A stretch of 64,000 nucleotides of DNA from a virus. Its lineage: Duplodnaviria > Caudoviricetes. The stretch is from IMG/VR virus record IMGVR_UViG_3300014208_000026, positions 193,182 to 257,181 of that record; one strand, 5' to 3'. Below are positions 56,935-63,063 of the stretch, in pieces. The position numbers were made by a program, and so were the translations under genes. The notes below the pieces were generated by a model. The model was not told where the DNA came from. It was given only the letters and a program-made list of their open reading frames with translations, and made no database searches. How positions within the stretch are numbered: position 1 is the stretch's first letter; each line of letters opens with the position of its first letter.

Positions 56935-57249
56935 ATGAACCTCAACAAACGACTCTGGAAATGCCGGTCTCATAGATGGTATGGTGCGGAGGACTACGAG
57001 TGTCCTGGTTACGCGGGTACCCTGCGGTGGATTCTCGCCTGGGTTGTGTGGTGTGTTCTAGCCATTCCACCTGTGGTGGTAGGAGTGCCTTCGGCTATAC
57101 TGTTTACGCTCGCAGAAGAGTTTGAAAAGTACAATCACAAACTGCGGCTTTGGATCGCAGGGCCTCTGAAACACAAGAAAGAAACAGAGGAACGGCTGGA
57201 TAAGCTGTATGATGAGTTGGAAGCCAAAGCGGGGGGATATAGAGAATGA
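56935..57249 (+). CDS. Small membrane protein
   Basis: ILAWVVWCVLAIPPVVVGVPSAILF hydrophobic stretch. Confidence 0.65.
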   Translation: MNLNKRLWKCRSHRWYGAEDYECPGYAGTLRWILAWVVWCVLAIPPVVVGVPSAILFTLAEEFEKYNHKLRLWIAGPLKHKKETEERLDKLYDELEAKAGGYRE

Positions 57250-58085
57250 TTGCCCAAGAACTGATTTCTTACCTGACCACTTTGATCTCACCCCCTCCCT
57301 CCTACGGGGAAGCAGTGAAGTTCTACCCGACCCCCGACGTGGATTTGTCTGGCGTGCCGGATGGCACGTTAACAGGGGCAATTGTTTGTGGGATTCCGTC
57401 AGAGGAGCAAGTAGCGGAGTTCATGCGGGCGTTGCGCCCAGGAGCGCATTTCCTGTTGGTCGCCCCCGATGAACAGCCTACGGGGCACACGGGGGCTTGT
57501 CGACTTGAAGATGGGGGTTTTGAGATCCGAGACTCTATTCTTGTGGTCGAAGAGCCAGGACGCCTACACTACGTACCGAAGGCGGCACGGAAGGAGAGGG
57601 AAGCTGGATGCAAGGTGCTTCCCGCCAAGGTCCGGAAGGAAACACGCTGCAAGTTGTGCGACGCCGTGTTGGAAGAGGGAGAGGATTTCGGAGAGTGTGA
57701 AAGTAGTGAAGATGGAGTGCATGAGATTGTTGTAGTAGAGACAAATGAGAAGATTAGAAATTTTCACCCGACCGTGAAAACTATTAAATTAATGAAAAGA
57801 TTACTCAGTACAATATCAACAGATAAGGGCCCCGTCCTTGACCCCTTCTTGGGATCGGGCTCCACGTTGATTGCTTGTCTGGAAACGGGGCATGACGCTA
57901 TCGGAATTGAGCGTGAGGAGGATTACCTCTTGATCGCGGATGCTCGTATCCGGCATTGGGCGCATACCGAGAAGGCCTGGGTCGAGAAGAACGTGGAATC
58001 GGACGTGGACAGCCGCGAGAAGATTGAAGCCCCCAAGGGAGGGGTGTTCGATCTGTTTGGTGGCGGTGGAGTTTTCGGGAAGTGA
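57246..58085 (+). CDS. DNA methyltransferase SAM-binding module fused to a degenerate catalytic-fold copy (no DPPY)
   Basis: LRPGAHF..LEDGGFEIRDSI; HYVPKAARKERE; RNFHPTVK; VLDPFLGSGST..IGIERE. Confidence 0.85.
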   Translation: MIAQELISYLTTLISPPPSYGEAVKFYPTPDVDLSGVPDGTLTGAIVCGIPSEEQVAEFMRALRPGAHFLLVAPDEQPTGHTGACRLEDGGFEIRDSILVVEEPGRLHYVPKAARKEREAGCKVLPAKVRKETRCKLCDAVLEEGEDFGECESSEDGVHEIVVVETNEKIRNFHPTVKTIKLMKRLLSTISTDKGPVLDPFLGSGSTLIACLETGHDAIGIEREEDYLLIADARIRHWAHTEKAWVEKNVESDVDSREKIEAPKGGVFDLFGGGGVFGK

Positions 58086-58729
58086 GAGTCATTACGGTAG
58101 CCCGAAAACCCTTAGTTGGAACTGTTGCACAAACGGTCCTGAAGTTCGGAACAGGCGGGATCAATATCGACGGAACGAGGTTGGCTTATTCAGGGGAAAC
58201 GGATGCTGCAAGCGCTACCCCGCAGGGTAGGTGTACCGCAAAGTCGGGGGCTCTCGCAGGCGGGACACAACACGATGGAGATCGATCTGACTTTGTCCGT
58301 CCAGAACAAAAAGGAAGATATCCGGCCAACCTCATTCTCTGCCATCTTCCAGATTGTGCTTGTGTCGGAATGAAGAAGGTGAAGCCCCTCGAAGGGTATC
58401 GGCCCAATCCGGTTGCTGTCCAGTCCGATGGGGCCATTCAGTTCAACCAGAAGGCTCCTGGATACCAGAAAAAGAGTTTCACGGGGGAGGACGGGGCCGA
58501 AGAGGTTCAGGATTGGAATTGTGTGGAGGGGTGTCCCGTCAGAGAGTTGGATCAGCAGAGCGGTGTTGTTCCTACAGGTTCCTGGTGCCGACAGAAGGAT
58601 GGGGCACACCCATTCGGGGATGCTGTAGGGTCCCCTTACGAGAACTGGAAACAGGTTAAAGAAACTCCTGGAGGCGCTTCCCGTTTTTTCAAACAGATAC
58701 AAGGTACCAGCAAGGGCGGCAAGGAATGA
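58082..58729 (+). CDS. DNA methyltransferase middle (TRD-like) module B1
   Basis: RVITVARKPLVGTVAQ..GTGGINID..GRYPANL..GGASRFFKQ; no DPPY or FxGxG. Confidence 0.8.
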   Translation: MRVITVARKPLVGTVAQTVLKFGTGGINIDGTRLAYSGETDAASATPQGRCTAKSGALAGGTQHDGDRSDFVRPEQKGRYPANLILCHLPDCACVGMKKVKPLEGYRPNPVAVQSDGAIQFNQKAPGYQKKSFTGEDGAEEVQDWNCVEGCPVRELDQQSGVVPTGSWCRQKDGAHPFGDAVGSPYENWKQVKETPGGASRFFKQIQGTSKGGKE

Positions 58730-59367
58730 GAGTAATCACGGTTGCCCGTAAACCCCTGGCGGGGACCGTTGCACAGACCTCCCTTCTCCACGGAACGGGT
58801 GGGATCAATATCGACGTCTGCCGTATTGGGCTCAACCCAGGGTACTGTTACAACGCAGACCGGAACGGAACTACGTTCCACGGGCAGGTTGGGGATAGAA
58901 TTCGGCAGACTGCAGAGAAGAAAGGCACCGAGACGATTGAGTCGACCAAGGGCAGGTGGCCAGCCAACCTTGTGATTTGCCACAGGGAAAGTTGTGAGTG
59001 TGTAGGTGTCTCTGAGATCACAGGAATCCGAAAAGATACTCGACCTGAGGGGGACGGCGGGCGAGAGGACAGAACCCAATGGCGTATTCGCCCTACAGAG
59101 CAAACTCGCCGAGGCTATGCTGACGAGAACGGGGTTGAAAAAGTTCCAGATTGGAACTGCGCTCCCAACTGTCCCGTTGCGGATCTGGACAGACAGAGCG
59201 GGGATAAAACAGGGGCTTCGGCTCCCGTCAAAGGAACTGAGCCGAGTGAACCGACAGATCGGGTGTACGGAAAGTACAAGAGGATTCCCGCGACGATTCA
59301 CGGGGACTCGGGCGGGGCTTCGCGGTTCTTCAAACAGGTACAACGGGAAAGGGACGGGGGATGTTAG
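58726..59367 (+). CDS. DNA methyltransferase middle (TRD-like) module B2
   Basis: RVITVARKPLAGTVAQ..GTGGINID..GRWPANL..GGASRFFKQ. Confidence 0.8.
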   Translation: MRVITVARKPLAGTVAQTSLLHGTGGINIDVCRIGLNPGYCYNADRNGTTFHGQVGDRIRQTAEKKGTETIESTKGRWPANLVICHRESCECVGVSEITGIRKDTRPEGDGGREDRTQWRIRPTEQTRRGYADENGVEKVPDWNCAPNCPVADLDRQSGDKTGASAPVKGTEPSEPTDRVYGKYKRIPATIHGDSGGASRFFKQVQRERDGGC

Positions 59368-59567: not shown

Positions 59568-59658
59568 GCAGGCGAGATTGCGGATCGGGTATATAGAATG
59601 ACACGGGGGCTAGTGGCGCCCCGGGTTTCGTAGAGACTACAAACAGGGAGACAAGAAG

Positions 59659-59790
59659 ATGAAGGAGCCTACGCAAGACCGTAGGGCGGTCCAGACTCTT
59701 CGCCTCCGGTTGGGAGACAGCTTCGAGGTCATTAAGACTCTTGAAGAAGGTTCCATCGGGGCGATAGTCACGGATCCGCCCTACGGTTAG
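59659..59790 (+). CDS. DNA methyltransferase N-terminal 43 aa ending at the DPPYG catalytic motif
   Basis: AGGGAG RBS; MKEPT..LRLGDSFEVIKTLEEGSIGAIVTDPPYG*; absent from ORF track; same frame as 59812 ORF. Confidence 0.85.
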   Translation: MKEPTQDRRAVQTLRLRLGDSFEVIKTLEEGSIGAIVTDPPYG

Positions 59791-59811
59791 TCACTCTAAG
59801 GTATTGAATTT

Positions 59812-61035
59812 ATGGGAAAATCGTTCGATTCCTTGACTACTAAGTCGAAGCTTTTTGATTGTCTGCCAGGAATTTGGTTTGAAGAAACGGGGGTTCCTTT
59901 TCCTCTCGTAGAAACTAAAGTACGGCTTCAATCGGTCCAAGACAATCCGCTAAAGCCGAACAACTGGCTTGAGATGGTGAAGGCAGCTTCGGCTGAACAA
60001 GAAATTCCGCAAGCTGAGTACCTTTCTATGCCGGATTGGCAGAAAGGCGGAAATTTTACCAAACCCGGCATTGGAGATCGAGAGACCGCATGGCCTTCTT
60101 TCTCCAGTGACCCCATTCATGGAACGGCCAATCCTACTTGTGCTACTTGCGGTGGTCGTCTCCGAGGTAAGAAAAAGTGTTCTTGTGAGCAGCCTCATGA
60201 CCACTGGAAACCTTTGGGGGCTTCTAAAAAAGCTTCAGAAGAGCATATTCTTGTTGCACAGCCGGTTGTATCCCGAGCCTCTCAGGCCCACGGAATGCAA
60301 GCATGGCACGAGGGCTGGCTTCGTGAGTGCTTCCGAGTTCTCCGTCCAGGCGGAGTGATTAAGGCATTCAGTGCGACTAGAACGCAGCACCGCCTAGCGG
60401 CTGCAATGGAAGCTGTAGGGTTTGTGTTGGACCCGAAGGAGAGTCTGGAAGCCTGGGCGTATGGGTGTCTCTCGGCCGACACGGAGATTCTGACCCAAGA
60501 CGGCTGGAAACCTGGATTGACGGTAGAGGCCGGGGAATTGGTATCCTGTTGGGACCCAAAGACGGACACCTCTATGTTCTATGCCGTGGAGCGGGTAACA
60601 AGGGCTCCTTTCAAGGGTTCCCTTGTGCGTCTCACGGGAGAGGGTACGGACCAACTCCTTACGCCCAATCACAGGGTCTATCACAAGACTCCTGAGGGCG
60701 AGGGTTGGGAGGTAACTAGGGCCGACGCTCTGTTGGGGGTTACGGTCGAAGTGCCCCTGGATGCTGGAAAGACCACGCAAGCCTCTGGGGAGTTGGTTTC
60801 TTACGACGGAATGGTGTGGTGCGTGAAGGTGCCTACAGGGGCTTTCTTTGCGAGAAGGGGTAATCAGGTATTCCGGAGTGGGAATAGCGGATTTCCCAAG
60901 AGCCTTAACGTGAGTAAAGCTTTGGAAAAGATGGGAAACACGGAAGCTGCAAAGGTTTTCGCCGGAATTGGCACGGCGATCAAGCCAAGCTGGGAGCCGT
61001 TTTTGGTGGGTAGGAAACCAATAAAAATAATTTAG
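59812..61035 (+). CDS. DNA methyltransferase catalytic-domain remainder with mini-intein
   Basis: (GIEF)MGKSFD; WLRECFRVLRPGG..AFSATRTQHR; WAYG/SGFPKS; GTAIKPSWEPFLVGRKP. Confidence 0.88.
   Translation: MGKSFDSLTTKSKLFDCLPGIWFEETGVPFPLVETKVRLQSVQDNPLKPNNWLEMVKAASAEQEIPQAEYLSMPDWQKGGNFTKPGIGDRETAWPSFSSDPIHGTANPTCATCGGRLRGKKKCSCEQPHDHWKPLGASKKASEEHILVAQPVVSRASQAHGMQAWHEGWLRECFRVLRPGGVIKAFSATRTQHRLAAAMEAVGFVLDPKESLEAWAYGCLSADTEILTQDGWKPGLTVEAGELVSCWDPKTDTSMFYAVERVTRAPFKGSLVRLTGEGTDQLLTPNHRVYHKTPEGEGWEVTRADALLGVTVEVPLDAGKTTQASGELVSYDGMVWCVKVPTGAFFARRGNQVFRSGNSGFPKSLNVSKALEKMGNTEAAKVFAGIGTAIKPSWEPFLVGRKPIKII
60466..60885 (+). mobile_element. Mini-intein (140 aa, no endonuclease)
   Basis: CLSADTEILTQDGWK (block A); LLTPNHRVY (block B); YDGMVWCVKVPTG.FFARR..SGN then +1 Ser. 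Confidence 0.92.
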
Positions 61036-61051: not shown

Positions 61052-62035
61052 ATGAAACAAGAGTATATATGTAAAAGATGTGGCAAAGCTGTTATAAAAG
61101 ATGCTTGTCAAGTTAGAAACCCTGACAACGTTTTTTGTTCCAGAGAGTGCAGTAATGCCAAGTTAGGAGAGCAGAGAATATGTCCTACATGTGGTGAACC
61201 TTTTTATGCTAAATTGTCTGCAATACTTCGAGGCGAGTCTACTTACTGTTCTCATAAATGTTCGAATCCTGCTCGGGGGAGAAAAGGTGAGCAGAACGGG
61301 AATTGGAAAGGTGGACGTTTCGTGCGTAGTGATGGCTATATTGCGGTCCGAATACCCGATGGCACCTATAAGCTAGAGCACGATGTGTTGATGGAAGAGC
61401 ATATAGGGCGTAAGTTGACTCCCGATGAAAACGTGCATCACATAAATGAGGACAGAGGAGATAACCGCATAGAGAACTTAAAGCTAGTTTCACGGGCTGA
61501 ACATATCTCTGAGTTTCATCCGTCGCAAAAGGACCCTGAGTGTTGGGTTTCTTTAACCTGTTTTGGGTGCGGTGTGGTTTTTGAGAGGCATAAATGCCAG
61601 TTGTTTAAATCGAAAAGGCTTTTCTGTTCTTGGGAGTGTTTCATTGAAAATCAGTGGTCCGACGTCATAGGTCCAGATTGGACCATATCTAAGTTGCACA
61701 AAGAGATTAAAGGGTCCCTAGTTTCTCTGGGATTTGAAACTACTACTAATTTAGGCGTAGGAAAATGGATTATAGACGAGGCAGACCCTAAAAGAAAAAT
61801 AGCTTTGGATTTGAGAGGCTGTTATTGGCACTCCTGTCCTCTTTGTGGGTTTCATGGGCCCGAAAGCAATCCCGAGAGAGATGCCAAGAAACAGGCGGGA
61901 CTGGAGAAAAAAGGTTGGACAGTTTTATGCATATGGGAACATGAGTGGCAGCAGGATCCAGAGGGCTGCATAGATAGGGTAAAAGAAATGTTCCTGGCAA
62001 AGAAAGAATCTGACATTGCAAGGAATGAGACGTAA
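61052..62035 (+). CDS. Zn-ribbon/HNH endonuclease with C-terminal Vsr/DUF559-like domain
   Basis: CxxC..FCSxxC repeats; EHDVLMEEHIGR.L..ENVHHINEDRGDNRIENL; LRGCYWHSCP..RD..L..GWTVLCIWEHE; AT-rich. Confidence 0.88.
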   Translation: MKQEYICKRCGKAVIKDACQVRNPDNVFCSRECSNAKLGEQRICPTCGEPFYAKLSAILRGESTYCSHKCSNPARGRKGEQNGNWKGGRFVRSDGYIAVRIPDGTYKLEHDVLMEEHIGRKLTPDENVHHINEDRGDNRIENLKLVSRAEHISEFHPSQKDPECWVSLTCFGCGVVFERHKCQLFKSKRLFCSWECFIENQWSDVIGPDWTISKLHKEIKGSLVSLGFETTTNLGVGKWIIDEADPKRKIALDLRGCYWHSCPLCGFHGPESNPERDAKKQAGLEKKGWTVLCIWEHEWQQDPEGCIDRVKEMFLAKKESDIARNET

Positions 62036-62437
62036 ATGTGTTCCTCTCCTGAAGAAAAAGCCGACTCGGCCGACAGGGAGAGCACTTCCGAAGCCGAAGC
62101 CCTCGCTGCATGGTCCGCCTATGGTCGTGTTCTTGCGGGAGTCATCCCCGTTGACGCAGAAGCGGAAGCCAGGGTAGAGACTTACATGACCTCGCTGTCA
62201 GAAGGTTCCGTGACGATTCGTCCGTTGAATCGTAAAGCCTCTCTGGGGGACAGGACTAACCATATCCACGCCCGTCTCCGCAGCCCCTTCTTCTTTCACA
62301 AGGACCCCAATGAGCCGGACCCGACTTCTGCCGAGGTAGCACAGTTCCAGGCAGAGCTTCGTAAGCAGGCGGAGGAAGAGGCGTTGGAAGATGAACTGCG
62401 GTTCTTGGAGGAGTTTTCTGCGGAGTTTAAGAAGTGA
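62036..62437 (+). CDS. Hypothetical protein
   Basis: 133-aa ORF abutting the HNH stop and overlapping the B3 start (GTGA). Confidence 0.6.
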   Translation: MCSSPEEKADSADRESTSEAEALAAWSAYGRVLAGVIPVDAEAEARVETYMTSLSEGSVTIRPLNRKASLGDRTNHIHARLRSPFFFHKDPNEPDPTSAEVAQFQAELRKQAEEEALEDELRFLEEFSAEFKK

Positions 62438-63063
62438 GAGTGATCACAGTAGCCCGTAAACCCCTGAGTGGAACCGTGGCTCAGACCGCTCTCCTCCATG
62501 GTACGGGCGGCTTGAACATCGACGCTACCCGCATCGGGGTTTTCCAGAACACAACTCCCTCGGGCGCGAACCGGTTCAACCAGCGGCTACAAGAGCAGGG
62601 CTATCGACCTGGGGCCTATCCCGTAGAAGAGAAGGTGCCAGAGGGCGGTTCCGGTAGGTGGCCTTCAAACCTCGTTTTGGTTCACAAAGAGAGTTGTTGC
62701 TGTACGGGCACGAGAGAGGTTCGTTCCGACGGGCACTTCCCCAAGGCCCGTTCCTCGGGGAGTCAGGTTTGCGGGCCTTCGGGACACGCCGGACAAGAGG
62801 GACTGGAGGAACGGAAAACTGACGGGGAAGCGGTTGAGGCTTGGGAGTGTGCCGCAGGTTGTCCGGTGAAAGAGTTAGACGAGGGAGTGGGGGTTTTGAA
62901 AAGCGGGGCGGTGAAACAGGGATGCATGAGGCATAATAGCACCCAACCGAGCCGTGGTGGGTTTGAAGGGGGATTCGGGGATTCCCCTCTAACGGGGTTC
63001 GGGGATTCAGGTGGTGCCTCCAGGTTCTTCAAACAGGTACGGGGCGAGAGTTCTGGTCACTAG
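62434..63063 (+). CDS. DNA methyltransferase middle (TRD-like) module B3
   Basis: RVITVARKPLSGTVAQ..GTGGLNID..GRWPSNL..GGASRFFKQ. Confidence 0.8.
   Translation: MRVITVARKPLSGTVAQTALLHGTGGLNIDATRIGVFQNTTPSGANRFNQRLQEQGYRPGAYPVEEKVPEGGSGRWPSNLVLVHKESCCCTGTREVRSDGHFPKARSSGSQVCGPSGHAGQEGLEERKTDGEAVEAWECAAGCPVKELDEGVGVLKSGAVKQGCMRHNSTQPSRGGFEGGFGDSPLTGFGDSGGASRFFKQVRGESSGH

What the first reader, a model, noticed from the sequence alone, without database searches (positions are those of the whole stretch)
59773..59814. Candidate programmed ribosomal bypass right after the catalytic DPPY motif
Seen: GAT CCG CCC TAC GGT | TAG TCA CTC TAA | GGT ATT GAA TTT ATG GGA AAA. Identical GGT codons (59785-87, 59800-02) flank a 12-nt in-frame gap with two different stops. 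Skipping it restores DPPYG-IEFMGK, matching the family pattern DPPYG(L/I)xFMGK. The gap can form a small hairpin (TTAG-TCACT-CTAA). Established: T4 gene 60 bypassing uses a matched take-off and landing codon with a stop directly after take-off. Inference: hopping could gate MTase production. Alternatives are a 43-aa DPPY peptide acting in trans with reinitiation at ATG 59812 (TAAGGT is SD-like), or a recent inactivating insertion. Retention of G-I-E-F before the ATG favours bypass.
Basis: partly seen in the sequence, partly recalled or inferred. Interest (0 to 1): 0.88.

Follow-up and report, generated by a model that had tools for sequence, protein, structure and literature searches.

The report
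Ribosome-hop gap in phage methylase gene
A huge phage's DNA-methylase gene is cut just after its catalytic DPPYG motif by a 12-base, stop-containing gap that ribosomes most likely hop over; about 90 related phage genes share the device, together with a co-evolving upstream RNA helix, which would make it one of very few natural families of translational bypassing.

Summary
In detail: GGT-TAG-TCA-CTC-TAA-GGT at 59785-59802 splits a beta-class DNA methyltransferase gene into a 43-codon ORF1 ending in DPPYG and a 407-codon ORF2. It is neither an artefact nor a dead gene.

About 90 distinct junctions from independent metagenomes show the same design at the same codon: a Gly codon, then a stop codon, then a gap, then GGN (68 of 93) or AGY (16 of 93), then (L/I)(E/S)FMGK. 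The inserts are 4-24 nt long, fall in all three frame offsets and are almost free of G.

All 12 cases picked without reference to the junction obey the rule. A near-identical strain has TGA and an 11-nt gap instead of TAG and 12 nt. The codons before the ATG vary synonymously. ORF1 is intact in 88 of 88 classes.

New here: 95 of 99 interrupted genes, against 3 of 65 intact ones, carry an upstream segment complementary to the take-off site. In the window it is 59678-59689 pairing with 59776-59787 (12 bp). The pairs show compensatory changes, which fits an "exiting-mRNA driver" of bypassing.

No protein or RNA data exist. This scan noted the same device earlier on other phage DNA. I found no paper describing it.

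The parts
59659..59787 (+). ORF1: 43 codons for the N-terminal strand and catalytic motif IV (DPPYG) of the methyltransferase
   Evidence: Equivalent ORF1s are open, have a start codon and keep the pattern in 88 of 88 junction classes.
59678..59689 (+). 5' arm of the long-range helix (ACCGTAGGGCGG), inside ORF1 codons 7-11
   Evidence: Exact reverse complement of 59776-59787. The helix is predicted by RNAalifold without a hint and lies in the MFE and centroid folds. Covariation.
59776..59787 (+). 3' arm of the helix (CCGCCCTACGGT): the Pro-Pro-Tyr-Gly codons, ending with the take-off codon
59785..59787 (+). Take-off codon GGT (Gly43)
   Evidence: The family uses GGT 43, GGC 31, GGA 14 and GGG 5.
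59788..59799 (+). Coding gap of 12 nt (TAG TCA CTC TAA); the stop codon directly follows the take-off codon, and beyond that stop codon the gap holds no G
   Evidence: A close strain has TGACCCTCTAA (11 nt) here.
59800..59802 (+). Landing codon GGT, identical to the take-off codon
59803..61035 (+). Resumed coding (IEF-MGKSFD... to EPFLVGRKPIKII*); gene callers start it at ATG 59812
60466..60885 (+). Mini-intein (Cys1 ... Gly-Asn, +1 Ser) inside the same gene
   Evidence: Read. Homologs P0016 and P0027 run ...YG/SGFPKS without it, and others carry larger inteins at the same site.

Best explanation
The site is a programmed short-range translational bypass (a 'stop-hop') in a phage beta-class DNA methyltransferase gene. 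The ribosome translates ORF1 to DPPYG. With peptidyl-tRNA-Gly on GGT (59785-87) and the stop codon TAG in the A site, the tRNA unpairs and the mRNA slides 15 nt. The tRNA then re-pairs with the next GGT (59800-02), and decoding resumes at ATT GAA TTT ATG. This gives one chain reading DPPYG-IEFMGK. A 12-bp helix between 59678-59689 and the take-off site 59776-59787 cannot exist while the ribosome covers its 3' arm. Its re-formation as that arm leaves the mRNA exit probably pulls the mRNA forward and blocks back-sliding, as proposed for the 5' and extended stem-loops of T4 gene 60. Shown by comparison: the design is conserved and selected, the codons between the landing site and the ATG are under amino-acid-level selection, the gap is frame-independent and free of G, and the helix covaries and is specific to interrupted genes. 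Inferred: the hop itself, its efficiency, the driver role of the helix, and the purpose. The likely purpose is setting a low or conditional level of methylase; the origin may be an insertion that the protein does not 'see'.
For: (1) Same architecture in relatives of 47-56% identity: L002, L003 and L004 have DPPYG, a stop, 11 nt, then GGA CTN GAR TTC ATG in another frame. (2) 93 unique stop-junctions: the codon before (L/I)(E/S)F is Gly in 68 and AGY in 16; inserts are 4-24 nt with frame offsets 53/21/19; Leu uses all six codons and Ser uses both TCN and AGT. (3) All 12 cases found without reference to the junction obey Gly-stop-gap-Gly. (4) A strain with 3 differences in 128 nt has TGA and an 11-nt gap, against TAG and 12 nt in the window, and keeps GGT...GGT. 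(5) ORF1 is intact in 88 of 88 classes, and ORF2 is long or open to the contig end. (6) The gap interior holds 9 G in 313 nt, against 30% in the coding sequence (P about 1e-26 on distinct gaps); GG occurs in 1 of 71 gaps against 19 expected. (7) An upstream complement to the take-off site of 8 bp or more is present in 95 of 99 interrupted and 3 of 65 intact genes; three of the four exceptions are chance pattern hits. (8) Covariation: pairs at the two Pro third positions take all four Watson-Crick forms, with 8 double-sided changes each and 0-1 mismatches; 89% of cells are paired against 44% or less when slid. RNAalifold finds the same helix unaided. The window's ORF1 region folds at -73.6 kcal/mol, z -5.76, with this helix in the MFE. 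(9) Precedents: T4 gene 60 and the exiting-mRNA driver model; 7-10-nt gaps in phiHau3 terminase with mass-spectrometry support.
Against: There is no protein, Ribo-seq or RNA evidence, so a single polypeptide is not shown. Take-off and landing codons differ in the third base in 33 of 68 Gly cases, and 16 of 93 junctions have AGY instead of Gly, which needs two-of-three re-pairing or a different event. Hairpins inside the gap are not better than shuffles, and the G-free gap holds no Shine-Dalgarno-like element, so two gene-60 signals are absent. G-U pairs lengthen the helices only moderately more often than A-C would (45 against 28), so a DNA-level inverted repeat is not excluded. This phage already makes its methylase from separate gene pieces, so another split is conceivable. 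The contig has no tRNA genes to examine.
Confidence: 0.72

Rival explanations
1. Deliberately split gene. ORF1 is released as a 43-aa DPPYG peptide and ORF2 is made separately by termination-reinitiation at ATG 59812. The two assemble non-covalently, and the helix tunes the coupling.
For: The ATG of FMGK is always present. The methylase of this phage is already divided into several genes (note e1-5401258). Gene callers annotate two ORFs in every relative.
Against: The ATG is equally conserved in intact genes, so it is not diagnostic. This model does not explain why G-(L/I)-(E/S)-F upstream of the ATG stays under amino-acid-level selection with no start codon before it, why a GGN codon sits exactly there, why the gap avoids G (a reinitiation spacer would favour a purine-rich Shine-Dalgarno element), or why the helix ends at the take-off codon. 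LEF would be lost from both products.
Confidence: 0.15
2. The gap is removed before translation, either from the RNA (an unconventional mini-intron or RNA repair-type cut and ligation) or by polymerase skipping. The helix would be part of that processing signal.
For: The helix next to the gap could position a nuclease. Another first-reader note (e1-5401270) reports RNA-repair genes (kptA) elsewhere in the window; I did not check this.
Against: Gaps as short as 1-5 nt with no conserved sequence, and no pairing on the 3' side of the gap, fit no known splicing or endonuclease motif. The stop directly after a Gly codon, the matched Gly codon and the avoidance of GG are features of decoding, not of cleavage.
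Confidence: 0.05
3. Other recoding: stop-codon readthrough or a +1/-1 frameshift, rather than a hop.
For: Some relatives (insert lengths 4-6) could be read by a +1 or +2 shift or by readthrough of a single stop.
Against: The window has two in-frame stops of different kinds, and no single shift restores the frame. No slippery sequence is present. These routes would add 1-5 residues inside the invariant DPPY-x-x-x-FMGK spacing. No suppressor tRNA is on the contig.
Confidence: 0.04
4. Inactivated gene (pseudogene), or a sequencing or assembly artefact.
For: Taken alone, a stop-containing insert in a catalytic motif looks like damage.
Against: The same junction is found in an independent study. 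About 90 diverged genes have the same design, with ORF1 and ORF2 both intact. A specific covarying helix accompanies the break.
Confidence: 0.02

Closest known systems
Phage T4 gene 60 translational bypass (50-nt gap) and its homologs in topoisomerase genes
   Same: [quoted passage not shown]
   Different: The gap is 12 nt here (about 1-24 nt in the family) rather than 50. There is no significant stem-loop inside the gap and no Shine-Dalgarno-like element. The helix's 3' arm includes the take-off codon itself. The host gene is a methyltransferase. No homing-endonuclease family was flagged among the Pfam-annotated neighbours in six relatives' loci. There is no sequence homology to the gene 60 cassette.
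Streptomyces phage phiHau3 large terminase, 7-10-nt coding gaps (PMC10732093)
   Same: Very short frame-disrupting inserts in an essential or enzymatic phage gene. The flanks join to match uninterrupted homologs. [quoted passage not shown] Mass spectrometry of a UAA variant in E. coli showed a bypass junction peptide.
   Different: The trigger there is a rare UUA 'hungry' codon tied to the host's bldA tRNA; here it is a stop codon. Three genes are known there; here there are about 90 junction variants with covariation evidence.
Low-level 'stop-hopping' in E. coli test constructs (Weiss et al. 1987, as cited in PMC5009743)
   Same: Peptidyl-tRNA re-pairs to a matching codon a few nucleotides past a stop codon. 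The classes GGT-TAG-GGC and GGT-TA-GGT are the textbook form.
   Different: Those were synthetic and about 1% efficient. The 2016 review states that no natural in-frame stop-hop was known. Here the arrangement is natural, conserved and has a dedicated RNA helix.
Mitochondrial 'byps' of Magnusiomyces capitatus
   Same: Many natural bypass elements with matched take-off and landing codons.
   Different: Byps are 27-55 nt and are spread over many genes of one genome. Here the gaps are tiny and sit at one codon of one gene family across many phages.

Membership tests
Programmed translational bypassing (gene 60 type) | Take-off and landing codons read by the same peptidyl-tRNA | tested here: met
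   Window: GGT and GGT. Family: Gly landing codon in 68 of 93, identical to take-off in 35; AGY in 16, all with a GGY take-off.
Programmed translational bypassing (gene 60 type) | Stop or slow-to-decode codon directly 3' of the take-off codon | tested here: met
   TAG at 59788-90. All 12 unbiased cases have a stop codon there.
Programmed translational bypassing (gene 60 type) | The gap is not decoded: its length is free of the triplet frame and its sequence is not conserved as codons | tested here: met
   Frame offsets 53/21/19; inserts 4-24 nt. Gap of 12 against 11 nt between near-identical strains.
Programmed translational bypassing (gene 60 type) | No cognate decoy codon within the scanned gap | tested here: met
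   GG inside 1 of 71 gaps against 19 expected; G is 2.9% of the gap interior.
Programmed translational bypassing (gene 60 type) | [quoted passage not shown] | tested here: met
   Helix of 8 bp or more in 95 of 99 interrupted against 3 of 65 intact genes; compensatory changes. Its function as a stimulator is inferred.
Programmed translational bypassing (gene 60 type) | Stem-loop formed by the 5' part of the gap (A-site or take-off stem-loop) | tested here: not met
   Gap hairpins have mean z -0.36 against shuffles; the window's is -0.5 kcal/mol, z +0.36.
Programmed translational bypassing (gene 60 type) | Shine-Dalgarno-like element in the gap upstream of the landing site | tested here: not met
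   The gap interiors are almost free of G.
Programmed translational bypassing (gene 60 type) | One polypeptide spanning both ORFs is made | not testable with these tools
   Needs mass spectrometry, a reporter assay or Ribo-seq.
Programmed translational bypassing (gene 60 type) | Nascent-peptide signal in the exit tunnel | not tested
   ORF1 carries basic residues (RRAVQTLRLRLGD) 25-37 residues before take-off, but they are encoded by the 5' arm, so the two roles cannot be separated by sequence.
Beta-class N6/N4 DNA methyltransferase (Pfam PF01555) | Motif IV (DPPY) near the N-terminus, followed by the conserved core | tested here: met
   DPPYG closes ORF1. ORF2 has 481 homologs at E of 0.001 or better, and many of the 120 listed carry PF01555. 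ORF2 alone scores 19 bits, below the 26.7-bit cut-off.
Beta-class N6/N4 DNA methyltransferase (Pfam PF01555) | SAM-binding motif I (FxGxG) in the same chain | tested here: not met
   ORF2 ends at EPFLVGRKP. The motif-I part (DPFLGSGST) lies in a separate gene at 57246-58085, which hits PF01555 positions 148-219 at E 1.4e-16.
phiHau3-type short-gap bypass | A rare UUA codon opens the gap | tested here: not met
   The gap opens with TAG (family: TGA 53, TAG 31, TAA 9).

The most novel reading that the evidence does not exclude
These are a natural, widespread class of 'zipper-driven' ribosome hops. A helix whose 3' arm is the last 11-15 nt before the gap re-forms behind the ribosome and drags the mRNA until peptidyl-tRNA-Gly meets the first GG. 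The device arises repeatedly at the DPPYG codon, and, according to other unchecked notes of this scan, at catalytic motifs of other phage enzymes. It would act as an insertion the protein does not see, used to throttle or condition enzyme synthesis, or to alter a nuclease target site.
Probability: 0.4. Interest if true: 0.92.

Novelty: new variant of a known kind. Interest (0 to 1): 0.86.

Why it matters
According to the 2016 recoding review read here (PMC5009743), naturally used translational bypassing rests essentially on T4 gene 60 and the mitochondria of one yeast lineage; a Streptomyces phage terminase has since been added as a candidate (PMC10732093). Here there are about 90 natural sequence variants of one short hop. 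They amount to a ready-made mutational series covering gap length, stop identity, landing codon and helix geometry. Such a series could test directly how ribosomes take off, what drives forward sliding (the exiting-mRNA pairing hypothesis) and how landing sites are chosen. It also matters for annotation. These methylase genes are routinely called as a 43-aa orphan plus an N-terminally truncated enzyme lacking its catalytic motif; 32 of the 120 listed homologs start exactly at MGK, and several more a few codons upstream.

Tried and rejected
folded for 33 gaps against shuffles and not significant.
- **Suppressor tRNA or unusual tRNA-Gly:** ARAGORN found no tRNA in the window or on the 257-kb contig, so nothing can be said.
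- **Alternative genetic code:** rejected. Long ORFs are open under table 11, all three stop codons are used at the junctions, and most gaps are out of frame.
- **RNA evidence:** no RNA holder was listed for this stretch, so expression and RNA-level removal could not be examined.
- **First scan of viral contigs with the read-through protein:** found nothing.
- **Scan without the stop requirement:** returned mostly unrelated MTase families with chance out-of-frame TTYATGGG. It was used only to recover a few genuine cases and the Tyr-Tyr variant.
- **Five pattern hits (L094, L114, L115, L126, L127):** not methylase genes; set aside.
- **Homing-endonuclease cassette as in gene 60:** among the Pfam-annotated neighbours of six relatives' loci, no HNH or GIY-YIG family was flagged. 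The window does have an HNH gene just downstream. No controlled test was made.
- **Stop-codon usage:** TAA is 11% at junctions against 28% of gene ends on this contig. The junctions come from many phages, so this is only a hint.
- **Tree of a 69-aa core:** the interrupted state needs at least 22 changes, against 25-33 in the first ten of the label shuffles. The alignment is too short to count origins.
- **G-U against A-C test for strandedness:** 45 against 28, suggestive only.
- **A Pfam scan of an L049 stretch:** used a wrong frame and is disregarded.

Full report
**The observation.** The bases are as described: GAT CCG CCC TAC GGT | TAG TCA CTC TAA | GGT ATT GAA TTT ATG GGA AAA at 59773-59817. 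ORF1 (59659-59790) encodes 43 residues ending in DPPYG. ORF2 starts at ATG 59812 and runs to 61035. The window is the last 64 kb of a 257-kb IMG/VR phage contig estimated to be 49% complete, so this is a very large phage. Long ORFs are open under the standard code. A contig from an independent groundwater study is identical across 59602-59798, so the insert is real DNA.

**The same break recurs in relatives.** ORF2 has hundreds of homologs. Of the 120 listed, 62 are intact with DPPY...FMGK, 32 were called as starting exactly at MGK, and several more start a few codons upstream.
- DNA of three of them (47-56% identity) shows a 42-43-codon ORF1 ending in DPPYG, a stop codon, and then 11 nt. GGA CTN GAR TTC ATG then follows in a different frame.
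- A protein-guided sample of viral contigs gave 26 intact loci and five interrupted ones, including GGC TGA NT GGC with only a 5-nt gap.
- Pattern scans gave 7 viral and 112 metagenomic stretches, with 94 distinct junction strings.
- In a broad family sample chosen by a motif far from the junction, 77 of 80 loci were intact. The trait is therefore rare in the wider family and concentrated in the window's subfamily.

**The rule at the junction.** One search covers 93 unique stop-junctions.
- Inserts relative to intact genes are 4-24 nt long, with modes at 8, 5, 14, 12 and 10.
- Frame offsets are 53/21/19, so the inserted bases are not read as codons.
- The codon just before (L/I)(E/S)F is Gly in 68 junctions. 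It is identical to the take-off codon in 35 and differs only in the third base in 33.
- That codon is AGY in 16 junctions, always with a GGY take-off.
- Upstream of the ATG, Leu is written with all six codons and Ser with both TCN and AGT. This is selection on the amino acids, although no start codon precedes them.
- My metagenome pattern required a stop after Gly, so that feature is biased there. All 12 cases found without using the junction still obey Gly-stop-gap-Gly: L002/L029, L003, L004, L005, L009, L034, L281, L359, L360, L361, the window and the X3 strain.
- The X3 strain differs at 3 of 128 ORF1 positions, yet has TGA and an 11-nt gap where the window has TAG and 12 nt. It keeps GGT...GGT. 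The in-frame state of the window is therefore incidental.
- Variants extend the rule: a Tyr-to-Tyr pair, TAY TAGT TAT (L257), and a second MTase subfamily (DPPYGTT.C.WD; L052, L191) with GGT-T-AGC and GGT-TGAGTT-AGT.

**This is not decay.** ORF1 is open, has a start codon and keeps the N-terminal methyltransferase pattern in all 88 junction classes with enough upstream sequence, although the peptides are highly diverged. ORF2 is mostly 137-618 aa or runs open to the contig end. The few very short ORF2s are chance pattern hits, one internally deleted remnant, or the second subfamily read in the wrong frame.

**Two tests of a hop model.**
1. If peptidyl-tRNA-Gly takes the first GG it meets, gaps should avoid GG. 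Only 1 of 71 gaps contains GG, against about 19 expected. G makes up 9 of 313 gap-interior bases, against 30% in the gene (P about 1e-26 on 38 distinct gaps).
2. Helices of 8 bp or more occur in 95 of 99 interrupted genes and 3 of 65 intact genes. Three of the four exceptions are loci already set aside as chance hits, and the fourth has a perfect 7-bp helix.

**The helix.** The 3' arm ends at or within a base or two of the take-off codon. There are two main geometries: a local hairpin starting about 20 nt upstream, in genes with a short ORF1, and a long-range pairing about 95 nt upstream, in genes with a long ORF1. Other spacings occur in 22 of 99 loci. In the long-ORF1 genes the N-terminal 'RRA' extension is simply the translation of the 5' arm.
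- In the window, ACCGTAGGGCGG (59678-59689) pairs perfectly with CCGCCCTACGGT (59776-59787).
- On an alignment of 33 long-range members, 89% of cells are paired, against 44% or less when the register is slid. The pairs opposite the two Pro third positions take all four Watson-Crick forms, with eight double-sided changes each and 0-1 mismatches.
- RNAalifold, given no structure, returns this helix as the only consensus element.
- The window's ORF1 region folds at -73.6 kcal/mol (z -5.76), with the helix in both the MFE and the centroid structures.
- The local class shows the same kind of covariation in a noisier alignment.
- G-U pairs lengthen the helices more often than A-C would (45 against 28). 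This mildly favours sense-strand RNA.

**What is not supported.** The small hairpin inside the gap is not better than shuffles, in the window or across the family. The gaps contain no Shine-Dalgarno-like sequence. No tRNA genes are on the contig. No homing-endonuclease family is flagged among the Pfam-annotated neighbours of six relatives, although the window has an HNH gene just downstream of ORF2. On a short-alignment tree the trait is scattered, needing at least 22 changes, so origins cannot be counted.

**Mechanism proposed.** At take-off, the 3' arm of the helix lies inside the ribosome while the 5' arm is free behind it. With a stop codon in the A site and peptidyl-tRNA-Gly in the P site, the tRNA unpairs. 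As the mRNA moves forward, the arm emerges and zips up with its partner, which favours forward movement and prevents return. The tRNA re-pairs at the first GG-codon and decoding resumes. This matches the 'exiting-mRNA driver' idea developed for T4 gene 60. It is compatible with the observed range of hop lengths, mostly 16 nt or less, against helices of 9-15 bp. The hop, its efficiency and the driver role are inferences. Only the comparative signatures are shown.

**Comparison and novelty.** Natural bypassing is documented for T4 gene 60 and its topoisomerase homologs and for the mitochondrial byps. The 2016 review states that no natural in-frame stop-hop was known. Short 7-10-nt gaps have been proposed for phiHau3 terminase and are partly supported there, with a rare UUA codon as the trigger. 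My literature searches found no description of bypassing in DPPY methyltransferases. This scan had already noted the same device on other phage DNA (e1-5410433, e1-5410440) and a similar one in a hydrolase gene (e1-2911663). Those are unchecked AI notes. I tested the hairpin claim here and found the helix in nearly all cases once long-range pairing is allowed.

**Verdict.** The finding is real, conserved and most likely a programmed short hop with a dedicated RNA helix. It is a new variant of translational bypassing. Experimental proof is lacking.

Noticed in passing
window 60466-60885: Mini-intein (Cys1 ... Gly-Asn, +1 Ser) in the same gene. Homologs have no intein (P0016, P0027), a mini-intein, or a large intein of roughly 350 aa or more (not scanned for an endonuclease domain) at the same YG|SGFPKS site (P0003-P0007). 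The product would need both a hop and protein splicing.
   Followed up: partly
window 61052-62035: This gene fuses an HNH_3 endonuclease domain with a REase_MTES_1575/DUF559 (Vsr-like) domain. It sits 17 nt after ORF2, between the catalytic piece and a later 'VARKPL...' module of the split methylase.
   Followed up: partly
window 58082-58729, 58726-59367, 62434-63063: Three paralogous ORFs all begin MRVITVARKPL.GTVAQT and end GGASRFFKQ, with no Pfam hit. They correspond to the middle segment of single-chain homologs, so the methylase appears to be dispersed over several genes.
   Followed up: no
window 59659-59830: The whole ORF1 region folds into one long imperfect hairpin (-73.6 kcal/mol, z -5.76). 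Only its outer helix is conserved across relatives.
   Followed up: partly
L096:79-155 and L096:1576-1652: One 2.1-kb metagenome contig carries two interrupted methylase paralogs (GGT TA GGT and GGC TGAAT GGC), each with its own local hairpin.
   Followed up: no
L257 (viral contig): A variant in which the stop follows the Tyr codon and the matched pair is Tyr: TAY TAGT TAT GGC ATG AAT TTY ATG.
   Followed up: no
L052/L097 and L191: A second MTase subfamily (DPPYGTT.C.WD) is broken at the same Gly, with AGC or AGT where a landing Gly codon is expected. AGY recurs as the 'landing' codon in 16 of 93 junctions, always after GGT or GGC.
   Followed up: partly
L041:617-693 and downstream: After a normal hop junction, ORF2 is only 26 aa (FMGKKWD fused to GWGTALKPSWEPVVVGRKP). 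This is an internal deletion of the whole core, probably a remnant.
   Followed up: no
G000 contig, whole 257 kb: No tRNA or tmRNA genes were detected on half of a huge-phage genome. Four other N6_N4 MTase genes on the contig (near 44.5, 51.6, 112.7 and 123.5 kb) are uninterrupted.
   Followed up: partly
runs X1 and X2 laid on window 59752-59786: The same groundwater samples hold another phage whose homolog reads straight through (…GG GCTTTCGTTCATGGGCAAGGAGTGGGAT = DPPYGLSFMGKEWD). Interrupted and intact forms therefore coexist in one habitat.
   Followed up: no
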